Below are positions 1-35,257 of a DNA stretch of 64,000 nucleotides, one piece after another (positions within the stretch are counted from its first letter, which is position 1; each line of letters starts with the position of its first letter). Below the pieces are notes generated by a model. The model was given only the letters and a program-made list of their open reading frames with translations. It searched no databases and was not told the DNA's origin. The stretch covers positions 78,492,001 through 78,556,000 of the forward strand of contig NC_135821.1 in NCBI RefSeq assembly GCF_964213995.1. The letters run 5' to 3'. This DNA is from Mustelus asterias. Lineage: Eukaryota. The translations under genes were made by a program, and so were the position numbers.

Positions 1-558
1 CATAAAAATTGTACAGATTGTTTTTTCCGTTGGCCTGGAAATGAAGCAATCCACAGTGTTAGGACAGGGATATTCACTGCATTTGACAAGTCTGAGCATC
101 TTGTAGCCTTCATAAATCCAATAAAATAAACACATAAAGACAATTTCAAACGATATTTTGAAGAAAATGCTAACCAAGTAAGTTCGAAGAAGGGGGGCAT
201 CGATTTTTACTTTCTGCAAACCTGCATTCTGACTAAAGATTTTGATATTCTTCTTGCATTTTTTCCTTTGATAAATGTGCATACCAATGAGAAATGATGG
301 AATGGACACAAAGAGGAGCTGGAAAACCCACAGCCTGATGTGGGAGATGGGGAAGAAATGATCGTAGCACACATTCCTGCAACCAGGCTGCTGTGTGTTG
401 CACACAAAGTCACTCTGTTCATCTCCCCAGACAGTCTCAGCTGCCACCACCAAGACCAGGACACGGAAAATGAAAACGACAGAGAGCCAGACTTTCCCCA
501 ACGGTGTTGAGTATTTGTTCACGCCACCCAGCAGAGACTGAAGAGAATGCCAATCCAT
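1..558 (-). CDS. Beta-type connexin (gap junction protein) copy B, 3'-truncated by the window edge
   Basis: Hand translation from ATG at 558: [77 protein letters not shown]...[27 protein letters not shown]. Open for 186 codons to position 1. Absent from the ORF track because its stop lies outside the window. Splice acceptor (tgtttgttcctag) ends at 570. Confidence 0.95.
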
Positions 559-1409
559 TTTGGATCACCCTAGGAACAAACAGCACTCATTACTTTACTG
601 CACTTAGGAATCTGGTAGGAACATAGGAATTGCTAAAATAATAAGCTCCTACCAGTTCATCTGCTACCATCCTGTTAGTTGCATGACACAAGGATAATGG
701 AGGATTGAGTTATCACGACGCAACAATTAATCTACAACAGTTTCAGACATGAGGCGATACAGATCCCAGTGGAATATTTGAGCAACCATCAACCCAAAGT
801 CACTAGTTTCTCCTAAGCCTGCTAGATTTGCTTATGTCATGTCCCAATTTACTCATATACTCCATCCCCAAAATATCTGCTTCCCAAATTGCTGTAAATG
901 TGCATATTTTAAATATAAATATAAAACTGGCTGGTAAATAAAACCAAGAACAGAATGGATGCAAAATTGGGTGGGAATTTGATGTAACCCACCTCCCTCC
1001 TATTTTCTGATTAATGACACTAATTCTTGCATCTAACCTGGCATGTCTAAGTGCTATATTTTTAAAAAGCTGGTTTATGTGGCTGCTTATCAAAGTCTCG
1101 TGGTCTTTTCAAATGTGTTAGCATCAAAGCTAACATAGCAACAAAGAATATTCTGGAATTCCCTTCGGTAATTGGTCCTGTTGCTGCAAATTGAAGGGAG
1201 AAGGTGAAAGCCTGAAATTTCCCACATTGCAGTTCCTAATCACAGGAAGTAGTATGAAGTAAAGATGAGGCTTCTTACATGAGGGAGAACATCTGGAGAG
1301 AGAATGCGATAGCATTAGCTGTCTATACTCCCTGTTAGCTGACTAACAGATTATAGAACATCTGTAGAATGGTTGTTCCATCAATTCCAAATAAGAGATT
1401 TTTTAAAAA

Positions 1410-1677
1410 GTTAAAGTTTGTTTATTAGTCACAAGTAGGCTTACTGCGATGAAGCTACTGTGAAATTCCCCTTGTCGCCACTCTCTGGCACCTGTTCAGG
1501 CCAATGCAGCTAACCAGCACAGCTTTCAGACTGTGGGAGGAGACCAGAGCACCTGGAGGAAACCCACGTAGACACAGGGAGAACGTGCAAACTCCACACA
1601 GACAGTGAACCCTAACCGGGAATTGAACCCGGGTCCCTCGCGCTGTGAGGCAGCAGCGCTAACCACTGTGCCACCCC
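1410..1677 (-). mobile_element. tRNA-derived V-SINE with alternative (non-CR1) tail
   Basis: tRNA-like head, V-domain TGTGTGGAGTTTGCACGTTCTCCC, tail ending GTAAGCCTACTTGTGACTAATAAA. Similar copies at ~24284-24556(-), 27700-28000(-), 40125-40335(+), 52169-52435(+) and 63420-63697(+). Confidence 0.85.
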
Positions 1678-4229
1678 AGGTTTCAACTCTCAGTCGAAAG
1701 CTTCTATTGAACAAGACCAACAGGAACTCCACTTGGGATTAGAAGCAAACTGCTGGTGTATCAGCTGGAATTCAACAAAAATCTTTCATACCAAACCTCC
1801 AGAAACCAGGTTAAATACTCATTATATTAAATGTATATCCATTACTGTAAAGGAAAATAGCCATTTGTCCATCAAACCAGCACAGATCAGAACAAATTTA
1901 CAACATTGATCGATAATGCATAAATATCCATTCAAGTGAACCACAGTTTTATGCAATTTCTTTGGCAAAAATAAAACAAAAATGCACCAATGTTTGTCCT
2001 CAGAAACCTTTCTCAATGAAAACTGACTTTCATCCCAACAAATTAAATCACAGCACAGGTAAACAGCAGTATTCTTTTAAAAGTAGCATGGAATTGGACA
2101 CAAGCATAGTTAAATAAATCTAAGGATTGAAATGAACAAATTCCGGTCATTTCTACAGATTTGACACCAATTCCTGGGCCACGGCTAGCACCTGACTACT
2201 GACTAATTCCCTGAGTATTTGTTGCATCAAAAGTTAACATATATCTTGCTCCTAAGAAGTTCACAAAAGCTATTGAATGTAAAAGTTTAGTGTTATAAAG
2301 ATCCTATGGAAATCATTGAATACAATCTTGCTATGTTTATAACTCAGCCCACCGTTGCCCTCACTCCATGGGTGGTATTTAATTGAGGCAATGGGGCTTT
2401 TGCCCACTGTCTGGAAGACCGGCAGAAGACCATCTCCCCCGCTGCAACACCACTTTGAGAAAGGCTGCCAGAATGAAGCGTCAAACAGGCCCTTGAGTGG
2501 CCGGCGAACAGCCTTCCTCAGGATCAAGGACTCCAAGGAAGGAAATCCCACACTTTTGACAACTTTTGGCCAGAGGCTGGTTTTATCATTCGTTTTATTT
2601 ACTCTTTTGATAGGAGGTGGTGATCACTGGTAAGGCCAGAATTTGCTCCCATCCCTAATCACCTTTCAACTGAGAGACTGCCATTTCTGAGGGCAGTTTA
2701 GAGTCTCAGAATCTGGAATCGTGCGTAGGCCCGAGTGGGTAAGGATATTTCCTTCCCTGAAAGACATTAGTGAACCAGATGGGTTTTTACAACAATCAAT
2801 GATATTGTTTCCTTTACAGGAGGCTAACTTTATATTCCTGTTTTATTAATTAAGTTTAAATTCCACCAGCTGCCATGGTAGCATTTGAACCCGCGACTCA
2901 AAGCATTAACCGGGATCCCTGAATTAGCAATCATTACTACTACACCACTGACTCATCCCACACTGCGGGCAGTGCCAACTGGACCAGTAGCAGCTGCTAG
3001 TAATGTGCCCAGGGGGGAGGCCTATGATCATCAAGGGGATGAGACCAAAGCTGAGTGCGGGTGGGATAGGGGTCACGGGGCGAGGTTCACAGGAGGTGGG
3101 ATGAAGGAGGTTGGCAGCAAGCATGCGATGGTGGTTCTCAGCCCGTTTGCCAGTGCCAGGTCCCTCAATCGAGGAACAGAGTACCTTTGAATGAGAGACT
3201 CGCTCCTGGGAGTCTGCAAACAAATGCAGCAGGATTTTGCTTTCTGTGCTCATTGCATAACGAGACCCTGCCTCACTGGAAGCCAGCGATGGCATAAGAT
3301 CCTTCAGTGGGCAATAATTGGAACAGGGTGGGAAGGCTGTCAGCCTTTTTGCCATGGATTTAAGGCAGGGCTGGAAGGCGGGTCCGGTATCCACCCTGCA
3401 GCTTCTAATATGACAAAATCATCCTCCCCCCCCCCCTCCCCCACCCCACTCCAAACCCACCTCAGGGGAAGGGCAGTAAATGTTGCCCCTTTAGATCCAA
3501 ATTCAAATATCATCCAGGCCACAGTTTAATTTAAATAAAAGCAGTTTATTACAACATATCATCATCTTTATAGCACTAGGTACAGAATTACATTCCTAAA
3601 AAGTTACTGTGCTGTTGCAATCCCAACAAACATAACAGTTGTGTTGTATATTCCCATTATATCCAGGAGTTAAAGTCTTTCAGTTTCTTCGCTCAATATC
3701 CAGACTGCCCTCAGAATAATGGAGAGGAAACACTCTGGATCTATTCCCCAGATGAAAGAAGGATAAAGAAAATCTGTAAACCTATTCATAAATAGTCAAT
3801 CGAAAAACAAACCTAAATGGAAAATAGAATTCATCTTTTCACAATCTGCAATGTAATCTTTTATTATCTGTTGTTCACTTTTCAATGATCATTCATTACA
3901 CAAGTGCTAAGGCAAGCATACCAAGGGGAAAGGTTCTAGTTACACTTCTTGAACTTTTCACATTTCACTGTTAAAGATACTTTAATATTGAAGGAATGTC
4001 AATAGCAGCAAATCTACAGCATTCCACCATTGGCGGTACATTTTACATGAAAGACCTCCGAAGCTCTGGAGATCTAAAAGAGATGCAGACCCAGATTTCC
4101 AGCAGGGATCCACATAGGAGTGAAACGTAAGCAGCCAGATTCCCACATCAGCTGTGCAAAACCATAGTTGTCAGATTGTATGTGAAGTGGCATCAAGAAA
4201 TATGATAAACGAGAAAGAGTGGTACATAG

Positions 4230-4998
4230 ACCATAGACCATTAAATGGTAAAAAATTGCAGCATGCTGCTGTGCAGAGGGACCTGGGTGTCCTTGTGCAA
4301 GAATCACAAGGAGTTGGTTTGCAGGTGCAGCAGTTAATTAAGAAGGCAAATTGAATTTTGTCCTTCATTGCTAGAGGGATGGAGTTTAAAAACAGCGAGG
4401 TCATATTGCAGCTGTATAAGGTGCTGGTGAGGCCACACCTAGAGTACTGTGTACAGTTTTGGTCTCCTTACTTGAGAAAGGATATACTGGCATTGGAGGG
4501 GGTGCAGAGGGGATTCACTAGGTTGATTCCGGAGTTGAGAGGGTTGGCTCATGAGGAGAAACTGAGTAGACTGGGGCTACACTCATTGGAATTCAGAAGA
4601 ATGAGGGGAGATCTATAGAAATATATAAGATTATGAAGGGAATAGATAAGATAGAAGCAGGGAAGTTGTTTCCACTGGCAGGTGAAACTAGAACTAGGGG
4701 GCATGGCCTCAAAATAAGGGGAAGCAGATTTAGGACTGAGTTGAGGAGGAACTTCGTCACACAAAGGGTTGTGAATCTGTGGAATTCCCTGCCCAGTGAA
4801 GCAGTTGAGGCTACCTCATTGAATGTCTTTAAGGCAAGGATAGATACATTTTTGAACAGTAAAGGAATTAAGGATTATGGTGAGTGGGTGGGTAAGTGGA
4901 GCTAAGTCCACGAAAAGATCAGCCATGATCTTATTGAATGGCGGAGCAGGCTCGAGGGGCCAGATGCCTCCTCCTGCTCCTAGTTCTTATGTTCTTAT
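4230..4998 (+). mobile_element. CR1 LINE 3' fragment (C-terminal ORF2 and tail)
   Basis: Broken ORFs with [19 protein letters not shown] and FVTQRVVNLWNSLP; (TTCTTATG)-type tail. Confidence 0.92.
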
Positions 4999-5083
4999 AG
5001 ACGTTATGGGCCAACGTGTGAGCGTGCTCCATGGACTGCCAATGGCAGGTCCCACTCCTTTACACATCAATCTTTGCTCATTT

Positions 5084-5436
5084 GGGGCGGCACGGTAGCA
5101 CAGTGGTTAGCACTGCTGCTTCACAGCTCCAGGGTCCTGGGTTCGATTCCCGGCTCGGGTCACTGTCTGTGTGGAGTTTGCACATTCTCCTCGTGTCTGC
5201 ATGGGTTTCCTCCGGGTGCTCCGGTTTCCTCCCACAGTCCAAAGATGTGCGGGTTAGGTTGATTGGCCAGGTTAAAAAAAAAAATTGCCCCTTAGAGTCC
5301 TAAGATGTGTAGGTTAGAGGGATTAGTGGGTAAATATGTGGGGGTAGGGCCTGGGTGGGATTGTGGTCGGTGCAGACTCGATGGGCCGAATGGCCTCCTT
5401 CTGCACTGTAGGGTTTCTATGATTTCTATGATTTCA
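5084..5436 (+). mobile_element. HE1-type V-SINE with CR1-derived tail
   Basis: GGGCGGCACGGTAGCACAGTGGTTAGCACTGCTG head with A/B boxes, V-domain, tail GGCCGAATGGCCTCCTTCTGCACTGTAGGG(TTTCTATGA)n. Further copies at ~9050-9378(+), 26228-26582(+), 26596-26924(+), 29310-29630(-), 43943-44293(+) and 49953-50290(-). Confidence 0.92.
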
Positions 5437-5870
5437 TTTACATGAACTTCAACCAACTCCCAATTATCAAGCATTTTAGACTCAATTGTATAGTTTTGTA
5501 TAAAATATTTCACTTAATCTAATTCTTTGATACCCTGACATCCGTCTTCTACTCAAAACATGGGGCTTCTAATCTGCTTCAGGTTCCTTATCTTCTCTGT
5601 GCGAATCATATTATTTATAATCCTTCTTTGGTATATTTGATAGAGGTTACATTCCCAGAGGTCTACATAGCATTACTAAAAAAAAGGTAGTGATTACGTG
5701 CTCACAAATGTCTAACATGTAACAGTAACAAATGGAATAATCTGAAATAAAAAGAATGCATAAAAGGTGCAAGTTCATCATTTCTTCCTGAAAATATAAC
5801 ATTGCAAAGTCACACAATGAAATATGTACAAATTGTATAATTCTAACTAATTCACAGATCAATGTTTTTT

Positions 5871-6647
5871 TTAACATATAGAAGTGTGATCTGAACTGCT
5901 GGATTGGTCATCATCAAATTTTGCTATGCTGATGTTTGAGGATTTAAGTGCAACTGTTGTTCTTTTGTCCTGTTCATTGCTTTCCGTTGCGGAAGCCAAG
6001 CTTCGCTTCCAATGCATAATGCAGTACTTTACAGACAAATAGCACAATTCAGCAATATTTAGCAAGATGCACACAGCTGAAGTCACTAACATAAAAACAG
6101 TAAAAACTGTTTTTTCCGTTGGCCTGGAAATGAAGCAATCCACAGTGTTAGGACAGGGATATTCACTGCATTTGACAAGTCTGAGCATCTTGTAGCCTTC
6201 ATAAATCCAATAAAATAAATACATAAAGACAACTTCAAACGACATTTTGAAGAAAATGCTAACCAAGTAAGTTCGAAGAAGGGGGGCATCGATTTTTACT
6301 TTCTGCAAACCTGCATTCTGACTAAAGATTTTGATATTCTTCTTGCATTTTTTCCTTTGATAAATGTGCATACCAATGAGAAATGATGGAATGGACACAA
6401 AGAGGAGCTGGAAAACCCACAGCCTGATGTGGGAGATGGGGAAGAAATGATCGTAGCACACATTCCTGCAACCAGGCTGCTGTGTGTTGCACACAAAGTC
6501 ACTCTGTTCATCTCCCCAGACAGTCTCAGCTGCCACCACCAAGATCAAGATACGGAAAATGAATATGACTGCGATCCATACTTTCCCCAGGGACGTTGAA
6601 TATTTGTTGACCCCATTCAGCAGAGAATGAAGGAAATACCATCCCAT
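5871..6647 (-). CDS. Beta-type connexin copy A, 258 aa, single coding exon
   Basis: [18 protein letters not shown]1 C-x6-C-x3-C, EL2 C-x4-C-x5-C and FISRPTEK motifs. Short cytoplasmic loop and tail, as in the beta class. Acceptor (tgtttatttctag) ends at 6659, 11 nt before the ATG. Exact GJB orthology cannot be resolved by eye. Confidence 0.96.
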
Positions 6648-7669
6648 TCTTGATCAGTCTAGAAATAAACAGCACCGGTTACTTTACTACAGCAGGAAGT
6701 CTAGAATTTATCTACTGATCATTTAAAATTTTGCACATCCGCGCACTTCCTGGTCAACTTCTAGTGATGATTTTTGGCCACACATTTATGTCAGTATTCA
6801 GCAGTGAAGCTACCACGTCTAACATTTACAACAGAAATCCTGTATGCAAACAGTTTACTGTCACAATGTTGCTGCAGACTCTGGCTGGTAGGTCGCACTG
6901 TGGAACACATTTCTTTAAATCATGGCTACTGCCTGTGGTCTGTTGACCGGTGAATCATTCTGTTGACAGTATGAAGATGAAGATCATGCCCAAAGCTTTC
7001 TGCATTGTGAATTTCCGATTTCTATAGGAACTAACAAATGCCTCTGCAGGAAAATGTGGATGTTATTTACATGGACAGAGGTTAGAAAGGGAGCAGAGAG
7101 ATGAGAGTCATGTCTTCAACCGTATTCTCTCAACATCTCCTGCTACACCATCTTGTTAGGATTGTGAGTAAACTGCTCTCTTTATCAGTGAGAGGTTTGA
7201 GCACAAAATCTGAGTAAGAAAATAAAGGTAATATTCTCTGTAAGTACCCGAAAGACATCTGTAGCATAAAAATTACAACTGTTAGCTGGAACATAACTCA
7301 GTCCGAATATATACCTGGTCTCTATTTAATATGTCTATCTCTCTTTAACTTTCACAGTTCTTCCCTCAGGAATCTATGATTATTTTAGCATAATTCACAA
7401 TGCAAAAATATATTTATCTTTCCAGCGTCGTACTCCTGCAGCTGATAATTTTTGCTGGGTATTTGTCCATAGGAAAATTGGCACCCCCCAGTTCCATACC
7501 CAAATGATCATTTCCCATGTACGCATCAGCAAACTGTTTGATTTGTGCAGTCAAATCAGCACAAGATTGTGAATTTTCTGTACAATGTTATCATTATATT
7601 TAATTTTAAAGACAAGGTAAATAACTGTTTAAATGATACAAGCAGCAACAAATTCATTGTGATGTTTCC

Positions 7670-13654: not shown

Positions 13655-14985
13655 CTCGGGAGGATTTAAACTAGTTTGGCAGGAGGGTGGGATCCAAAGC
13701 AGTAGGGAGACAGAAGAGAAGTTTGAGGACAGTGCAGAAATTAAAGAGAGCACATTAAGTCGTAAAGGCAGTGTCAGTAATCCTAGTACCAGACAGATCA
13801 GGCAAAGGAAAGACAGAGAGCAAGGGAAGTCCAGATTAAACTGTGTTTATTTCAATGCAAGAGGCTTGACGGGCAAGGCAGATGAACTCAGGCCATGGAT
13901 GGGTACATGGGACTGGGATATTATAGCAATTACTGAAACATGGCTAAGGGAGGGACAGGACTGGCAGCTCAATGTTCCAGGGTACAGATGCTGTAGGAAA
14001 GATAGAACAGGAGATAAGAGAGGAGGGGGAGTTGCATTTTTGATTAGGGAAAGCATCACGGCCGTACTGAGAGGGGATATATCCGAGGGTTTGGCCACTG
14101 AGTTTATATGGGTAGAACTGAGAAATAAGAAGGGGGAAACCACTTTGATAGGGTTGTACTATAGGCCTCCAAATAGTCGGTGGGAAATTGAGGAGCAAAT
14201 CTATAAGGAGATTACAGATAGCTCCAAGAAAAATAGGATGGTAATAGAAGGGGATTTTAACCTTCCCAACATTGACTGGGATAACTATAGTATTAGAGGG
14301 TTGGATGGAGAGAAATTTGTTGAGTGCATTCAGGAGGAATTTCTCATTCAGTATGTGGATGGCCCGACTAGAGAGGGGGCAAAACTTGACCTCCTCTTGG
14401 GAAATAAGGAAGGGCAAGTGACAGAAGTGTTAGCGAGGGATCACTTTGGGACCAGTGACCATAATTCTATTAGTTTTAAGATAGCCATGGAGAATGATAG
14501 GTCTGGCCCAAAAGTTAAAATTCTAAATTGGGGCAAGGCCAATTTTGATGGTATCAGGCAGGAACTTTCAAAAGTTAATTGGGGGAGTCTGTTGGAAGGC
14601 AAAGGGATGTCTGGTAAGTGGGAGGCTTTCAAAAGTGTGTTAACCGGGGTTCAGGGTAAGCACATTCTTCTTGGAGTGAAGGGCAAGGCTGGCAGAAGTA
14701 GGGAACCCTGGATGACTCAGATAATTGTCCAGAGGGGCAATTTTTTCACACAGAGCGTGCTGAGTGTCTGGAACAAGCTGCCAGAGATCGTAGTAGAGGC
14801 GGGTACAATTTTGTCTTTTAAAAAGCATTTAGACAGTTACATGGGTATGATGGGTATAGAGGGATATGGGCCAAATGTGGGCAATTGGGATTAGCTTCGG
14901 GGTTTTAAAAAAAAGGGCAGCATGGACAGGTTGGGCTGAAGGGCCTGTTTCCATGCTGTAAACCTCTATGACTCTATGCCTCTAT
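13655..14985 (+). mobile_element. Internally deleted CR1: ORF1 end, APE endonuclease, joined in frame to the ORF2 C-terminus (no RT)
   Basis: CVYFNARG, AITETWL, YYRPP, GDFN and SDHN APE motifs. Junction near 14720 jumps to QRGNFFTQSVLSVWNKLP. (ACTCTATG)-type tail. Confidence 0.92.
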
Positions 14986-19410: not shown

Positions 19411-19975
19411 GATCGCCTCATCACTGAGTAGACCACAAGCCTCAACAAAGATCACAGAGGAGTTCATGGGTGGGCTTCCATTCACAAATCCCCGCATGTG
19501 CATCCAAGATGATCTGCAGCTTTAACCAGCTTTCCACGGCAGCAAGGATTCATTGCCTCAACATAAACCTGCAAAAAGAAACTGTACTTCAGCTGTCGGA
19601 CAAATGCTGTAAGAAGACAACCATCATCATTGGAATAAAGATTATCAGCCAATCAATGCAATACCAGGGTGTTAGAAACTTCAGCTCCTAAGACTGACCC
19701 TACCAAGGGTGTGTTTGAACTTCAACTTAATGAAGCAATTTCCATCTCGTGCTGATATTAAACGGTTGTGTACATCTTTGAGGGAGATTCACATGGCTTT
19801 AATCTGACATGCTTTGCAGTCAGTTTAAAATCGGATTAGGTCTCACACATCAAAAAGGAGCCTCTGCGTTTTCCTTGAACCTTCTATAAAAATAACTGTA
19901 GGACAGACACTGCTGCCTGCTCTGTCTAAACATTTAATAGATAACCGTTAGAGGAACTCTGCGTTTAGAGATGAA

Positions 19976-21212
19976 CAGTAAGAAGTCTCACAACACCAGG
20001 TTAAAGTCCAACAGGTTTATTTGGTAGCAAATACCATAAGCTTTCGGAGCAATGCTCCTTCGTCAGATGGAGTGGTCTCTGTTCTCAAACAGGGTGTGGA
20101 GATGCCGGCGTTGGACTGGGGTAAACACAGTAAGAAGTTTAACAACACCAGGTTAAAGTCCAACAGGTTTATTTGGTAGCAAAAGCCACACAAGCTTTCG
20201 AGGCTCGAAAGCTTGTGTGGCTTTTGCTACCAAATAAACCTGTTGGACTTTAACCTGGTGTTGTTAAACTTCTTACTCAAACAGGGCACAGACACAGAAA
20301 TCAAATTACAGAATACTGATTAGAATGCAAATCTCTACAGCCAGCCAGGTCTTAAATGTACAGACAATGTGGGTGGAGGGAGCATTCAACACAGGTTAAA
20401 GAGATGTGTATTGTCTCCAGACAGTACAGCTTGTGAAATTGTGCAAGTCCAGGAGGCAAGCTGTGGGGGTTACTGATAATGTGACATAAATCCAACATCC
20501 CGGTTTAGACTGTCCTCATGTGTGCGGAACTTGGCTATCAGTTTCTGCTCAGCGACTCTGCGCTGTCGTGTGTCGTGAAGGCCGCCTTGGAGAATGCTTA
20601 CCTGAAGATCCAAGGCTGAATGCCCGTGACTGCTGAAGTGCTCCCCCACAGGAAGAGAACAGTCTTGCCTGGTGATTGTCGAGCGGTGTTCATTCATCCG
20701 TTGTCGTAGCGTCTGCATGGTTTCCCCAATGTACCATGCCTCGGGACATCCTTTCTTGCAGCGTATCAGGTAGACAACCTTGGCCGAGTTGCAAGAGTAG
20801 GTACCGTTCCGCACACATGAGGACGGTCTAAACCGGGATGTTGGATTTATGTCACATTATCAGTAACCCCCACAGCTTGCCTCCTGGACTTGCACAATTT
20901 CACAAGCTGTACTGTCTGGAGACAATACACATCTCTTTAACCTGTGTTGAATGCTCCCTCCACCCACATTGTCTGTCCATTTAAGACCTGGCTGGCTGTA
21001 GAGATTTGCATTCTAATCAGTATTCTGTAATTTGATTTCTGTGTCTGTGCCCTGTTTGAGAACAGAGACCACTCCATCTGACGAAGGAGCATTGCTCCGA
21101 AAGCTTATGGTATTTGCTACCAAATAAACCTGTTGGACTTTAACCTGGTGTTGTGAGACTTCTTACTGTGCTTACCCCAGTCCAACGCCGGCATCTCCAC
21201 ATCATGACTACC
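19976..21212. mobile_element. Penelope-like element (family A) fold-back insertion with inverted pseudo-LTRs and a GIY-YIG fragment
   Basis: GIY-YIG peptide VVYLIRCKKGCPEAWYIGET at 20470-20814(-). Near-perfect inverted arms. 12-bp TSD TTTAGAGATGAA (19964-19975 / 21213-21224). Confidence 0.92.
20095..20276. mobile_element. Mini palindromic family-A Penelope insertion nested in the previous element
   Basis: ~35-nt tail plus perfect inverted repeat. TSD TCAAACAGGG (20085-20094 / 20277-20286). Confidence 0.9.
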
Positions 21213-31096: not shown

Positions 31097-34028
31097 CTAG
31101 ACCATTCTTTTGTATCCCTCCATTCCCACTCCGTTCATATGGCTGTCTAGATAAGTCTTAAACGTTCCCAGTGTGTCTGCCTCCACCACCTTGCCTGGCA
31201 GCGCACTCCAGGCCCCCACCACCCTCTGTGTAAAATATGTCCGTCTGATATCCGTGTTAAACCTCCCCCCCTTCACCTTGAACCTATGACCCCTCGTGAA
31301 CGTCACCACCGACCTGGGGAAAAGCTTCCCACTGTTCACCCTATCTATGCCTTTCATAATTTTATACACCTCTATTAAGTCTCCCCTCATCCTCTGACTT
31401 TCCAGGGAGAACAACCCCAGTTTACCCAATCTCTCCTCATAACTAAGTCCCTCCATACCAGGTAACATCCTGGTTAACCTCCTCTGTACTCTCTCCAAAG
31501 CCTCCACGTCCTTCTGGTAGTATGGCGACCAGAACTGGACGCAGTATTCCAGATGCGGCCGAACCAACGTTCTATACATCTGCAACATCAGACCCCAACT
31601 TTTATACTCTATGCCCCGTCCTATAAAGGCAAGCATGCCATATGCCTTCTTCACCACCTTCTCCACCTGTGACATCACTTTCAAGGATCTGTGGACTTGC
31701 ACACCCAGGTCCCTCTGCGTATCTACACCCTTTATGGTTCTGCCATTTATCATATAGCTCCTCCCTACATTATTTCTACCAAAATGCATCACTTCGCATT
31801 TATCAGGATTGAACTCCATCTGCCATTTCTTTGCCCAAATTTCCAGCCTATCTATATCCTTCTGTAGCTTCTGACAATGCTCCTCACTATCTGCAAGTCC
31901 TGCCAATTTTGTGTCGTCCGCAAACTTACTGATCACCCCAGTTACACCTTCTTCCAGATCATTTATATAAATCACAAACAGCAGAGGTCCCAATACAGAG
32001 CCCTGCGGAACACCACTAGTCACAGGCCTCCAGCCGGAAAAAGACCCTTCCACTACCACCCTCTGTCTTCTGTGACCAAGCCAGTTCTCCACCCATCTAG
32101 CCACCTCCCCCTTTATCCTAAGAGATCCAACCTTTTTCACCAGCCTACCATGAGGGACTTTGTCAAACGCTTTACTAAAGTCCATATAGACGACATCCAC
32201 GGCCCTTCCCTCGTCAACCATTTTGGTCACTTCTTCAAAAAACTCCACCAGGTTAGTGAGGCATGACCTCCCTCTCACAAAACCATGCTGACTATCGTTA
32301 ATGAGTTTATTCCTTTCTAAATGCGCATACATCCGATCTCTAAGAATCTTCTCCAACAACTTCCCCACCACGGACGTCAAGCTCACCGGCCTATAATTAC
32401 CCGGGTTATCCTTCCCACCCTTCTTAAATAACGGGACCACTTTAGCTATCCTCCAATCCTCTGGGACCTCACCTGCGTCCAGTGACGAGACAAAGATTTG
32501 CGTCAGAGGCCCAGCGATTTCATCTCTCGTCTCCCTGAGCAGCCTTGGATAGATTCCATCAGGCCCTGGGGATTTGTCAGTCTTTAAATTCTCTCACAAA
32601 CCTAACACTTCCTCCTTTGTAATGGAGATTTTCTCCAACGGTTCAACACTCCCCTCCGAGACACTCCCAGTCAACACATCCCTCTCCTTTGTGAATACCG
32701 ACGCAAAGTATTCATTTAGGATCTCCCCTACTTCTTTGGGCTCCAAGCATATTTCCCCACTTTTGTCCCTGAGAGGTCCGATTTTTTCCCTGACAACCCT
32801 TTTGTTCCTAACGTATGAATAAAATGCCTTGGGATTCTCCTTAATCCTGTCTGCCAAGAACATTTCGTGACCCCTTTTTGCTCTTCTAATTCTCCGTTTG
32901 AGTTCTTTCCTACTTTCTTTGTACTCCTCCAGGGCTCCCTCCGTTTTTAGCTGCCTGGACCTACCATACGCCTCTCTTTTCTTTTTGACCAGTCCCTCAA
33001 TTTCCCTGGTTATCCACGGTTCTCGAATCCTACCCCTCCTATCCTTTTTAAACAGGCACATGCCTGTCCTGTAGCCCTAACAACTGTTCCTTAAAAGACT
33101 CCCACTTGCCAGATGTGGATTTACCCTCAAACAGCCCCTCCCAATCAAGAGCTGCCAATTTCTGCCTAATCCCACTAAAGTTAGCCTTCCCCCAATCCAA
33201 CACCTTACCCTTGGGACACCACTCATCCTTTTCCATCACTATCCTAAAGCTAACAGAATTGTGGTCACTATTTGCCACATGTTCCCCTACCGAAACTTTG
33301 AAGACCTGACCGGGCTCATTCCCCAGTACTAGGTCCAGTATAGCCCCCTCTCTAGTCGGGCTATCTACATATTGTTCCAAAGAACCCTCCTGTACGCATT
33401 TTACAAATTCCACCCCATTCAGAGTCCCTGCTCTCAGCGATTTCCAGTCAATACCAGGGAAATTGAAGTCTCCCACTACAACAACCCTATTTTTCCTGCA
33501 CCTATCCAGTATCTCCTGACATATCCGTTCTTCCACTTCCCTTGGGCTGTTGGGGGGCCTGTAGTACACCCCCAACATAGTGACTGCGCCCTTCCTGTTT
33601 CTAAGCTCCACCCAGAGTGACTCGTTACACGACCCCTCTGAATTGTCCTCCCTCTGCACCGCTGTAATATGCTCTCCAACTAATACTGCCACTCCCCCAC
33701 CTCTTTTGGCCCCTCCTCTGTCTCGCCTAAAACACTTGTACCCCGGAATATTCAGCTGCCAGTCCTGTCCCTCTTTCAACCAAGTCTCTGTCACCGCAAC
33801 CACATCCAAATTCCTCGTGAGCATTAAGGCCCTAAGTTCATCTGTCTTACCTGCTACGCTCCTTGCATTGAAGTATAAGCACTCCAGACCTCCAGGCCCA
33901 GTGAGGTCATCCTCCCCCAGAGTGCTCTTCTTCTTTGCCAGCCTTGTCCCAGCCCCAAGCTCGTCCCCAGCCTCTACACTTGTAGACCTAATATTTTGAT
34001 CCCCTCCCCCCTGCCATACTAGTTTAAA
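31097..34028 (-). pseudogene. CR1 ORF2 (APE endonuclease and reverse transcriptase); frameshift near 33050 and in-frame TGA at 32594-32596
   Basis: CLYFNARS, VTETWL, YYRPP, GDFN, SDHN; NYRPVSLTS, DFSKAFD, GVPQGSVLGP and FADD. Confidence 0.95.
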
Positions 34029-35039
34029 CCCCCCCGAACTGCACTAGCAAAACTCCCAGCCAGGATATTCGTGCCCTTCCAACTTAGTTGTGACCCGTCC
34101 TTCTTGTACAGGTGCCATCCTCTCCTGAAAACTTCCCATTGATCTAGGAAAATGAAGCCCTCCCTCCTGGACCAGTCCTTTAGCCAAGCATTCAATTTTA
34201 CTAACTCCCTATTCTTAGCCTCACTGGCACGAGGCATTGGGAGCAGCCCAGAGATGGCCACCCTGGAGGCCCTACGTTTTAGCCTATTTCCCAACTCCCT
34301 GAATTGCTCTCGTAGGATCCCCCTGCTCTTCCTATCTACGTCATTTGCACCAATGTGTACAATGACATCCGTTTCTTTATCTTCCCCTTTTAATATGCCT
34401 CCTATCCGCTCGGAGACATCCATGACCCCAGCACCAGGTAGGCAGACTACCATCCTGGAGTCCCGTTCGCACCCACAGAATCGCCTGTCCGTGCCTCTAA
34501 CCGACGCATCCCCCACCACTATTGCTCTCCTAACCCCTCTCTTTCCTTTCCGGGCCACAGAGCCTGACTGTGTGCCAGTGACCTGGTCACTGTGGCTTAC
34601 CCCTGGAGAGTCATCCTCCCCCACACTATCCAAAACAATATACTTGTTTTGGAGTGGGACAACCACAGGTGACCCCCTCCTCTAATTGCTCACTCCCCTC
34701 CCCTCTCACACCTGTCGCCGAGCCCTTCCTATTATGAGAGACAGCCACTGGAGTACTCTCTGGTACGTTACCCTTCTGACCTTTACTCCTCCTAACTGTG
34801 ACCCACGTGTCTTCCTCCCGATACCCCGGTGTAACTAGTTGCCTATAACTCATGTCAATTATTCTCTCATTCTCCCTGACTAGACCAAGGTCAGCAATCT
34901 GCAGCTCCAGTTCCGTGACACGGTCCCTCAGGAGCTGCAGTTCCACGCACCTGGCACAAATGTGAACCGCTGGGAGGCTAGGTGTTTCCAGGAACTCCCA
35001 CATCCCACACTGGAAGCACTGAACTGGCCTATCGCTCAT
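34019..35039 (-). pseudogene. CR1 ORF1 (Zn finger, coiled coil, SGNH/GDSL esterase), one frameshift near 34675
   Basis: CFQCGMW...CARC, VVGDAS, VIVHIGAND and LYKKDG; two overlapping ORF-track frames. Confidence 0.9.
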
Positions 35040-35099: not shown

Positions 35100-35257
35100 A
35101 AGCCCTGTGAGCCAAAGCCCTTAAAGCTCACACTCTGCTTCCCACACACTCAAGCCCTGTGAGCCAAAGCCCTTAAAGCTCACACTCTGCTTCCCACACA
35201 CTCAAGCCCTGTGAGCCAAAGCCCTTAAAGCTCACACGCTGCTTCCCACACACTCTG
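35100..35257. repeat. Three tandem 52-bp repeats in the CR1 5' UTR
   Basis: Unit AAGCCCTGTGAGCCAAAGCCCTTAAAGCTCACACTCTGCTTCCCACACACTC, each with a TGTGAGC/GCTCACA hairpin. Confidence 0.95.

What the first reader, a model, noticed from the sequence alone, without database searches (positions are those of the whole stretch)
19..6544. Sharply bounded homogenisation tract between two tandem connexins
Seen (offset 6089): 19-455 vs 6108-6544 differ at only 3 of 437 nt. The first 103 coding nt differ at 24 positions, and the 18 nt visible beyond the tract differ at 5. The tract covers the end of TM1, EL1, TM2, the loop, TM3 and EL2. Inference: an old duplication with recent interlocus gene conversion.
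Basis: partly seen in the sequence, partly recalled or inferred. Interest (0 to 1): 0.7.

Follow-up and report, generated by a model that had tools for sequence, protein, structure and literature searches.

The report
Shark connexin twins share their middle
Two neighbouring gap-junction genes of sharks and rays, which split before sharks and rays did, keep copying their middle two-thirds from each other while their ends, including the residue that sets voltage-gating direction in related channels, stay different.

Summary
No synonymous site of about 86 differs in the tract; about 45% do in codons 1-35. The genes are gjb11.1 (short) and gjb11.2 (long), a cartilaginous-fish connexin pair, not GJB2 orthologues. 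The pattern is not one recent event. In 19 shark and ray pairs, residues 36-180 group by species (paralogue distance 0.019, orthologues 0.11-0.12; AU p 9e-37 against a long-copy clade), while the ends split long from short. So conversion has recurred since before the shark-ray split (306 Ma, PMC3692497). Residue 2 is Gly in 19 of 19 long and Asp in 19 of 19 short copies; its charge sets gating polarity in Cx26/Cx32. Whether selection or a plain edge effect holds the borders is open. The one sawfish protein looks like a long-short hybrid. Raw reads were not examined. This is a new, long-lived case of known partial concerted evolution; I found no report of it for this pair.

The parts
5871..6647 (-). 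gjb11.2, long copy (258 aa, starts M-G-W), single coding exon; upstream gene of the pair
   Evidence: ORF; PF00029; identical to P0001; in the gjb11 clade 100/100
1..558 (-). gjb11.1, short copy (starts M-D-W), codons 1-186; the last 36 codons of the 222-aa protein lie beyond the window edge
   Evidence: open-ended ORF; equals the first 186 residues of P0138; PF00029
19..455 (-). Homogenised tract in the short copy (codons 36-180)
   Evidence: 3 of 437 differ from 6108-6544; 0 silent differences
6108..6544 (-). Homogenised tract in the long copy (codons 36-180)
131..154 (-). Island in TM3 with all 3 remaining differences (I/M135, I/V139, C/Y143); partner 6220-6243
   Evidence: clustering p about 0.008; residue 135 differs in 6 of 19 pairs, the most of any site in 36-180
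520..558 (-). Short-copy N-terminal helix, codons 1-13 (Asp2; net charge -1, -4 in all 7 rays)
   Evidence: Asp2 in 19 of 19 short copies
6609..6647 (-). Long-copy N-terminal helix, codons 1-13 (Gly2; net charge 0)
   Evidence: Gly2 in 19 of 19 long copies, 10 of 13 positions invariant
456..519 (-). Codons 14-35 (into TM1): divergent in this lineage and Scyliorhinus, converted in many other lineages; partner 6545-6608
   Evidence: pS 0.5 here; 0 amino-acid differences in residues 15-35 in 7 of 19 pairs
1..18 (-). Start of TM4 (codons 181-186), divergent; partner 6090-6107
   Evidence: 5 of 18 differ; first difference after residue 170 is at 181-182 in 12 of 19 pairs
5871..6014 (-). Long-copy C-terminal tail (residues 212-258 and stop)
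   Evidence: tails listed
559..602 (-). Residual upstream homology of the short copy: pyrimidine run and AG 11 nt before the ATG, a likely splice acceptor (inferred); partner 6648-6691
   Evidence: blastn alignment ends at 602; aligned
603..5870 (.). Spacer between the copies; no homology to the matching flank of the other copy except dispersed repeats
   Evidence: blastn; repeat families

Best explanation
A single gjb11 gene duplicated in tandem before sharks and rays separated (shown by shared end types; date from the literature). The two coding exons, 5-6.5 kb apart in the same orientation, are the only homologous DNA left, and they exchange sequence by repeated non-allelic gene conversion (homogenisation shown; the molecular route inferred). 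Tracts mostly fall in the middle of the roughly 0.7-kb homology block, so late TM1 to EL2 evolves as one sequence per species, fast-changing cytoplasmic loop included. The ends escape for two reasons acting together (inferred): tracts seldom reach the last 80-100 nt of a homology block, and conversions that would erase the Gly2/Asp2 N-terminal difference or the tail difference are removed by selection. Each species therefore makes two subunits with nearly the same docking loops and core but different pore-lining N-termini and tails. Confidence is 0.93 for recurrent conversion and about 0.55 that selection helps to hold the N-terminal border.
For: Window: 0 of about 86 synonymous sites differ in the tract against pS 0.45 in codons 1-35. 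19 pairs: paralogue distance 0.019 against orthologue 0.110 and 0.121 in residues 36-180; in the fastest segment (96-135) 0.041 against 0.222 and 0.261; the same with only the 12 pairs whose two members are both named (0.020 against 0.120 and 0.126). Middle tree needs 17 long/short changes and rejects a long-copy clade (p-AU 8.8e-37); the ends tree needs 1 change (SH-aLRT 97). Minor residues in 36-180: 64 carried by both copies of a species, 5 by one copy type; in 1-13: 0 and 13. Whale shark DNA printed in the supplement of PMC7914757 (read by eye): about 8 differences in codons 14-180, 12 in codons 1-13, 9 in codons 181-200. Same order and 5.2-6.5 kb spacing in Amblyraja, Chiloscyllium and whale shark. 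For selection: Gly2 19 of 19 and Asp2 19 of 19; rays add acidic residues only to the short copy (net -4 against 0) with conversion reaching codon 14 in 4 of 7; residue-2 charge sets gating polarity in Cx26/Cx32 (PMC2229612 abstract; PMC4276742 passages).
Against: No raw reads and no population data; other species were compared as proteins (whale shark DNA by eye only), so silent sites were computed for the window alone. Homogenisation is incomplete: 5 residues in the tract stay copy-specific across species, 8 of 38 sequences are closer to a sequence from a congener or family member than to their own paralogue, and 2 of 8 close-species comparisons show no concerted site. Both usual borders lie about 80-100 nt inside the ends of the homology block, as a neutral edge effect predicts. 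Heterodontus has converted residues 6-209, and the one Pristis protein has a long-type N-terminus on a short-type tail, so at least one lineage may do without the Asp2 form. Expression and co-assembly are unknown.
Confidence: 0.85

Rival explanations
1. Neutral edge effect only: conversion is real, but the ends differ merely because tracts need flanking homology and rarely reach them; nothing selects for two kinds of N-terminus.
For: Homology ends 44 nt before the ATG and fades near codon 212, so codon 13 and codon 181 are each about 80-100 nt from an edge; borders wander between lineages; Pristis has one hybrid-looking protein.
Against: The end differences are not drifting: 10 of 13 long-copy N-terminal positions are invariant in 19 species, and positions 2, 4, 5 differ in 19 of 19 pairs; tracts have reached residue 6 in Heterodontus without taking residues 2-5. 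Purifying selection on each copy separately could give this too, so the test is not decisive.
Confidence: 0.4
2. Adaptive homogenisation: selection favours conversions because the two subunits co-assemble and must keep matching docking and oligomerisation surfaces.
For: The tract covers E1, E2 and the loop-TM3 junction, which govern docking and hetero-oligomerisation in other connexins (PMC5267329 passages); it has lasted in all 19 pairs.
Against: E1 and E2 are nearly invariant even between species (orthologue distance 0-0.06 in residues 41-80), so conversion is not needed to keep them matched; silent sites and the variable loop are swept along as neutral tracts would do; the residual differences cluster in TM3. 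No expression data.
Confidence: 0.2
3. Assembly or polishing artefact: reads of one copy overwrote the other.
Against: The copies still differ at 3 sites; reads cross-map only where copies are already alike, and the flanks differ at 23-28%; the same pattern stands in 18 other pairs with each species' own residues and in the whale shark draft.
Confidence: 0.03
4. Strong protein conservation or parallel amino-acid change, without DNA exchange.
For: Residues 36-95 are conserved among orthologues (0.05).
Against: Silent sites are identical (0 of 48 four-fold sites), and the least conserved segment is shared within species.
Confidence: 0.01
5. Independent recent duplications in each lineage (birth and death).
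For: Whole-protein tree pairs the copies within species.
Against: N-termini and tails split long from short across sharks and rays with one change; conserved order and spacing; no flanking homology beyond 44 nt.
Confidence: 0.01

Closest known systems
gjb11.1 / gjb11.2 of cartilaginous fishes (Mikalsen et al. 2021, PMC7914757)
   Same: Same genes: clade 100/100 with the whale shark gjb11.2 and Callorhinchus gjb11 proteins; same start motifs, order and spacing.
   Different: That paper names and maps them; 'conversion' has 0 hits in its main text and 'conversion', 'concerted', 'homogeni' 0 hits in its supplement.
Human long/middle-wave opsins, RHD/RHCE, clustered protocadherins: divergence peaks under gene conversion (Fawcett and Innan 2011, PMC3924837, passages)
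   Same: Tandem paralogues, low divergence in most of the gene, high divergence kept at a few functionally plausible sites.
   Different: Opsin duplication is put at 30-40 Ma, here at least about 306 Ma. Opsin conversion is strongest in introns; here only the coding exon is still homologous and the divergent parts lie at the edges, so the edge effect is a stronger rival. The functional sites are proven for opsins, only inferred here. RHD/RHCE and protocadherins were seen only as cited references.
Amniote GJB2/GJB6 (Cx26/Cx30) tandem pair
   Same: Tandem beta connexins with a short and a long tail; PMC6726660 (passages) suggests in one sentence that gene conversion may have hidden their orthology.
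   Different: A separate duplication from gjb8. No tract was shown there. In my unmatched-species look the bird and gecko pairs share the N-terminal half and differ in the loop, the opposite layout.
Long-lasting recurrent concerted evolution (Wang and Chen 2018, PMC6053082, abstract only)
   Same: Recurrent homogenisation over hundreds of millions of years, which that abstract calls very rare.
   Different: Prokaryotic cases; here a vertebrate pair and only part of the gene.

Membership tests
Connexin (PF00029) | Pfam score above the curated cut-off | tested here: met
   273 and 246 bits, cut-off 31.3
Connexin (PF00029) | Four membrane segments and three cysteines in each extracellular loop | tested here: met
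   four hydrophobic segments; C53, C60, C64, C160, C165, C171 read from the translation
gjb11 orthogroup | Forms one clade with the sequences named gjb11 in PMC7914757, apart from gjb1 and gjb8/GJB2/GJB6 | tested here: met
   8 of 24 rows form one clade, 100/100; P0122 and P0017 matched to the supplement's entries by reading their ends
gjb11 orthogroup | Restricted to cartilaginous fishes | tested here: met
   the top 17 of 120 listed hits (327 bits or more) are chondrichthyan-named or unnamed, the next scores 281; only the best 120 were seen
gjb11 orthogroup | Synteny with gja9, gja4, gjb3, gjb10 on one chromosome | not testable with these tools
   no genome held; tblastn finds no other connexin in the window
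GJB2 (Cx26) orthologues, the database label | Groups with gjb8/GJB2/GJB6 | tested here: not met
   shark gjb8 (P0096, P0097) groups there; the window genes do not
Interlocus gene conversion | Paralogues closer than orthologues inside the tract | tested here: met
   own paralogue nearest or tied for 30 of 38 sequences
Interlocus gene conversion | Orthologue-wise grouping outside the tract | tested here: met
   (30 columns, chosen after seeing the alignment)
Interlocus gene conversion | Silent sites homogenised | tested here: met
   computed for the window only; whale shark by eye
Interlocus gene conversion | Non-reciprocal transfer (against double unequal crossover); variants shared by both copies in a population | not testable with these tools
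   needs pedigree, sperm or population long reads
Interlocus gene conversion | Both copies confirmed in raw reads | not tested
   no reads were laid
Divergence peak held by selection (Teshima-Innan type) | Fixed differences at functional sites beyond what neutral tract decay gives | tested here: inconclusive
   fixed at residues 2, 4, 5, 211 in 19 of 19, but these lie near the ends of homology

The most novel reading that the evidence does not exclude
For over 300 million years gene conversion has kept two channel subunits able to co-assemble and dock, while selection keeps a neutral (Gly2) and an acidic (Asp2) voltage-sensor N-terminus apart. Sharks and rays would thus build mixed channels with opposite or bipolar voltage gating, or rectifying junctions, from one shared, jointly evolving core: a natural N-terminus and tail swap repeated in every lineage, with the sawfish hybrid as a natural loss of one form.
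Probability: 0.2. Interest if true: 0.75.

Novelty: new member of a known kind. Interest (0 to 1): 0.52.

Why it matters
It is a clean vertebrate case of partial concerted evolution lasting at least as long as the shark-ray split, in a 0.7-kb single exon where tract borders can be read in many species. That makes the old question of whether selection or loss of homology stops conversion testable on a set of natural replicates. For connexin work it gives pairs of wild-type channels that differ almost only in the N-terminal helix, TM4 and tail. It also warns that trees built on conserved connexin domains will show false lineage-specific duplications for this pair.

Tried and rejected
No whole genome is held, so the 3' end of the short copy and synteny were not read from DNA; the protein P0138 supplied the end. 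Sequencing-run search: 23 runs listed, 2 hold half or more of the words and may be the source sample, so no independent support; no RNA holder listed. Dropped from the pair counts: 4 of 42 gjb11-like proteins without a partner in the collection (P0122 whale shark, P0011 Pristis, P0017 and P0145 Callorhinchus); the whale shark short copy exists in the paper's supplement but was not among the hits, so absence from the collection proves little. GC3 in the tract is 0.50-0.51 against 0.57-0.60 in codons 1-35: no sign of GC-biased conversion. No earlier scan findings. No complex or structure prediction was run: close homologues of solved hexamers would pass by likeness. A CO2 carbamylation motif was considered: Lys116 aligns with Cx26 Lys125 but the loop is 9 residues shorter and the partner residue is unclear; not pursued. 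Literature searches without a report of conversion in this pair: (open-licence PMC and bioRxiv only; subscription papers such as Abascal and Zardoya's connexin review, cited in PMC6726660, were not seen).

Full report
Observation. The window holds two connexin genes on the minus strand, 6089 nt apart: a complete 258-aa ORF at 5871-6647 and the first 186 codons of a second at 1-558, which runs off the window. None of 100,000 random placements of the 32 mismatches gave so long a stretch with at most 3. In the tract 0 of about 86 synonymous sites differ (95% upper bound 0.034), against 11.5 of 25 in codons 1-35. All 3 differences are amino-acid changes within 24 nt of TM3, leaving exact runs of 301 and 112 nt. 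Upstream, homology lasts 44 nt past the ATG, through a likely splice acceptor (inferred), and then stops; the spacer shares only dispersed repeats.

Identity. Databases call these 'gap junction beta-2-like', but a tree of 24 beta connexins puts them in a 100/100 clade apart from gjb1 and gjb8/GJB2/GJB6. That clade is gjb11, described as specific to cartilaginous fishes in PMC7914757 (passages; supplement passages and parts 61 and 82 of 83). Its supplement lists gjb11.1 (short, M-D-W) and gjb11.2 (long, M-G-W) 6.5 kb apart in whale shark, and gives positions 5.2 and 5.6 kb apart, long copy upstream, in Amblyraja and Chiloscyllium, the order seen here. The nearest named relative of the window's long protein is from Scyliorhinus (91%).

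Other species. Two homologue searches and two cluster look-ups gave 42 gjb11-like proteins; 38 form 19 long/short pairs (12 shark, 7 ray; 12 pairs with both members named, 6 paired by equal contig length, plus the window's own). All align without gaps over residues 1-212. In residues 36-180 the mean distance between paralogues of one species is 0.019, between orthologues 0.110 (long) and 0.121 (short); in the fastest part, 96-135, 0.041 against 0.222 and 0.261. In residues 1-14 it is reversed: 0.421 against 0.048 and 0.228. The 12 fully named pairs give the same. A tree of residues 36-180 follows the species, needs 17 long/short changes, and rejects a long-copy clade (p-AU 8.8e-37). A tree of residues 1-14 plus 205-220 (30 columns, chosen after seeing the alignment) splits long from short with one change (SH-aLRT 97). 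Of minor residues in 36-180, 64 are carried by both copies of a species and 5 by one copy type; in 1-13 the counts are 0 and 13. Read by eye, the whale shark copies differ at 12 of 39 nt in codons 1-13, about 8 of 501 in codons 14-180 and 9 of 60 in codons 181-200, and their shared tract has silent changes relative to the window's shared tract.

Timing. Both end types occur in sharks and rays, so the duplication predates their split, 306 Ma by PMC3692497 (abstract). Callorhinchus shows one gene, which suggests a date after 421 Ma unless it lost one. Conversion has recurred: 10 of 19 species have private residues in both copies, and 6 of 8 close-species comparisons show sites changed in both copies since the split. 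In the window's lineage 5 such sites postdate the split from Scyliorhinus, while sites 19, 25, 26, 28 and 33 have stayed copy-specific since before it, so the 5' border seen here is older than the last conversions. Against completeness: 8 of 38 sequences are closer to a congener's or family member's than to their own paralogue, and residues 124 and 135 stay copy-specific in carpet sharks.

Borders. At protein level the last 5' difference lies between residues 5 and 35 and the first 3' difference between 181 and 210, at 181-182 in 12 of 19 pairs. Only residues 2, 4, 5 and 211 differ in all 19. Residue 2 is Gly in every long and Asp in every short copy; the long N-terminus is neutral in all 19, the short one -1 in 11 of 12 sharks and -4 in all 7 rays. 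In Cx26 and Cx32 the charge of residue 2 sets the polarity of voltage gating, charges up to residue 11 can reverse it, and one oppositely charged subunit makes a heteromer bipolar (PMC2229612 abstract; PMC4276742 passages). Docking depends on E1 and E2, oligomerisation on the loop-TM3 region (PMC5267329 passages). So the converted part holds the compatibility surfaces and the protected part the gating determinant. That fit is inference: both usual borders also lie 80-100 nt inside the ends of the homology block, which neutral tract decay would give. The single Pristis protein has a long-type N-terminus (0 differences from the commonest long form) and a tail nearest to short ray copies (7 of 16 differences, against 10 or more to long ones), and the paper's table finds one gene there. 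This is what a deletion between the upstream long and downstream short copy would leave; it supports ectopic recombination in the tract but suggests the Asp2 form can be lost. A collapsed assembly is the alternative.

Mechanism. Shown: two old paralogues, a species-wise middle with silent identity in the window, paralogue-wise ends, repeated in 19 pairs. Inferred: non-allelic conversion between close direct repeats (double unequal crossover cannot be told apart); the table places the pair 0.9-2.1 Mb from a chromosome start in three species, where recombination is often high (general knowledge). Unproven: selection on the ends (about 0.55), co-assembly, adaptive value of homogenisation (about 0.2). 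An artefact is unlikely (0.03) but was not tested on reads.

Comparison and novelty. It works like the divergence-peak cases reviewed in PMC3924837 (passages) and meets the testable marks of interlocus conversion. Seven searches found one sentence guessing at conversion for amniote Cx26/Cx30 (PMC6726660, passages) and nothing for gjb11; the paper that named gjb11 does not use the word. The library lacks most subscription journals, and bioRxiv supplements were closed. PMC8594068 (passages) was not relevant. Concerted evolution over hundreds of millions of years is called very rare in PMC6053082 (abstract). Verdict: real, a new member of a known kind, notable for its age and replication; interest 0.52.

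Noticed in passing
P0011 (Pristis pectinata, XP_051892644.1): Only gjb11 protein found for this species: long-type N-terminus with short-type tail, a possible deletion hybrid of the two copies or an assembly collapse.
   Followed up: partly
window 6267-6281 and 178-192 (residues 123-127): gjb11 has L-L-R-T-Y at the loop-TM3 junction where gjb1, gjb8, GJB2 and GJB6 have W-W-T-Y. An LR doublet marks R-type connexins such as Cx43, so this beta-class protein may oligomerise like an alpha connexin. Trp125 occurs in both copies of two stingrays and in one Heterodontus copy.
   Followed up: partly
P0020/P0032 and P0028/P0169: Bird and gecko Cx26/Cx30 pairs are identical in residues 1-14 and 0.02-0.05 apart in 15-97, but 0.41-0.45 apart in the loop; a hint of N-terminal-half conversion in sauropsids, opposite to gjb11. 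Species were not matched.
   Followed up: partly
window 131-154: All 3 residual differences are non-synonymous, clustered, and the rarer state is in the short copy; whale shark has a cluster of 4 differences at codons 134-139 (by eye). A small internal barrier or selected site in TM3 is possible.
   Followed up: partly
P0014 (Heptranchias short copy): Sequence departs from all other short copies from residue 206, suggesting a frameshift or annotation difference.
   Followed up: no
window 19975-21169: Nested near-perfect inverted repeats: 255-nt arms at 99% (20276-20530, 20806-21060) and 120-nt arms at 100% (19975-20094, 21050-21169); part of the arm sequence recurs near the reverse transcriptase ORFs at 47378-49292.
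   Followed up: no
window 13899-14894, 31097-34453, 47378-49292: Retroelement ORFs: endonuclease and RVT_1 domains, an upstream GDSL/esterase-like ORF as in CR1/L2-type LINEs (type recalled), and a second RT of another kind. No other connexin in the window.
   Followed up: partly
window 5084-5440 and six or more other places: Abundant short interspersed repeat family, copies up to 98% alike; one lies between the two genes.
   Followed up: no
window 35100-35255: Three tandem copies of a 52-nt unit, 99% matched.
   Followed up: no
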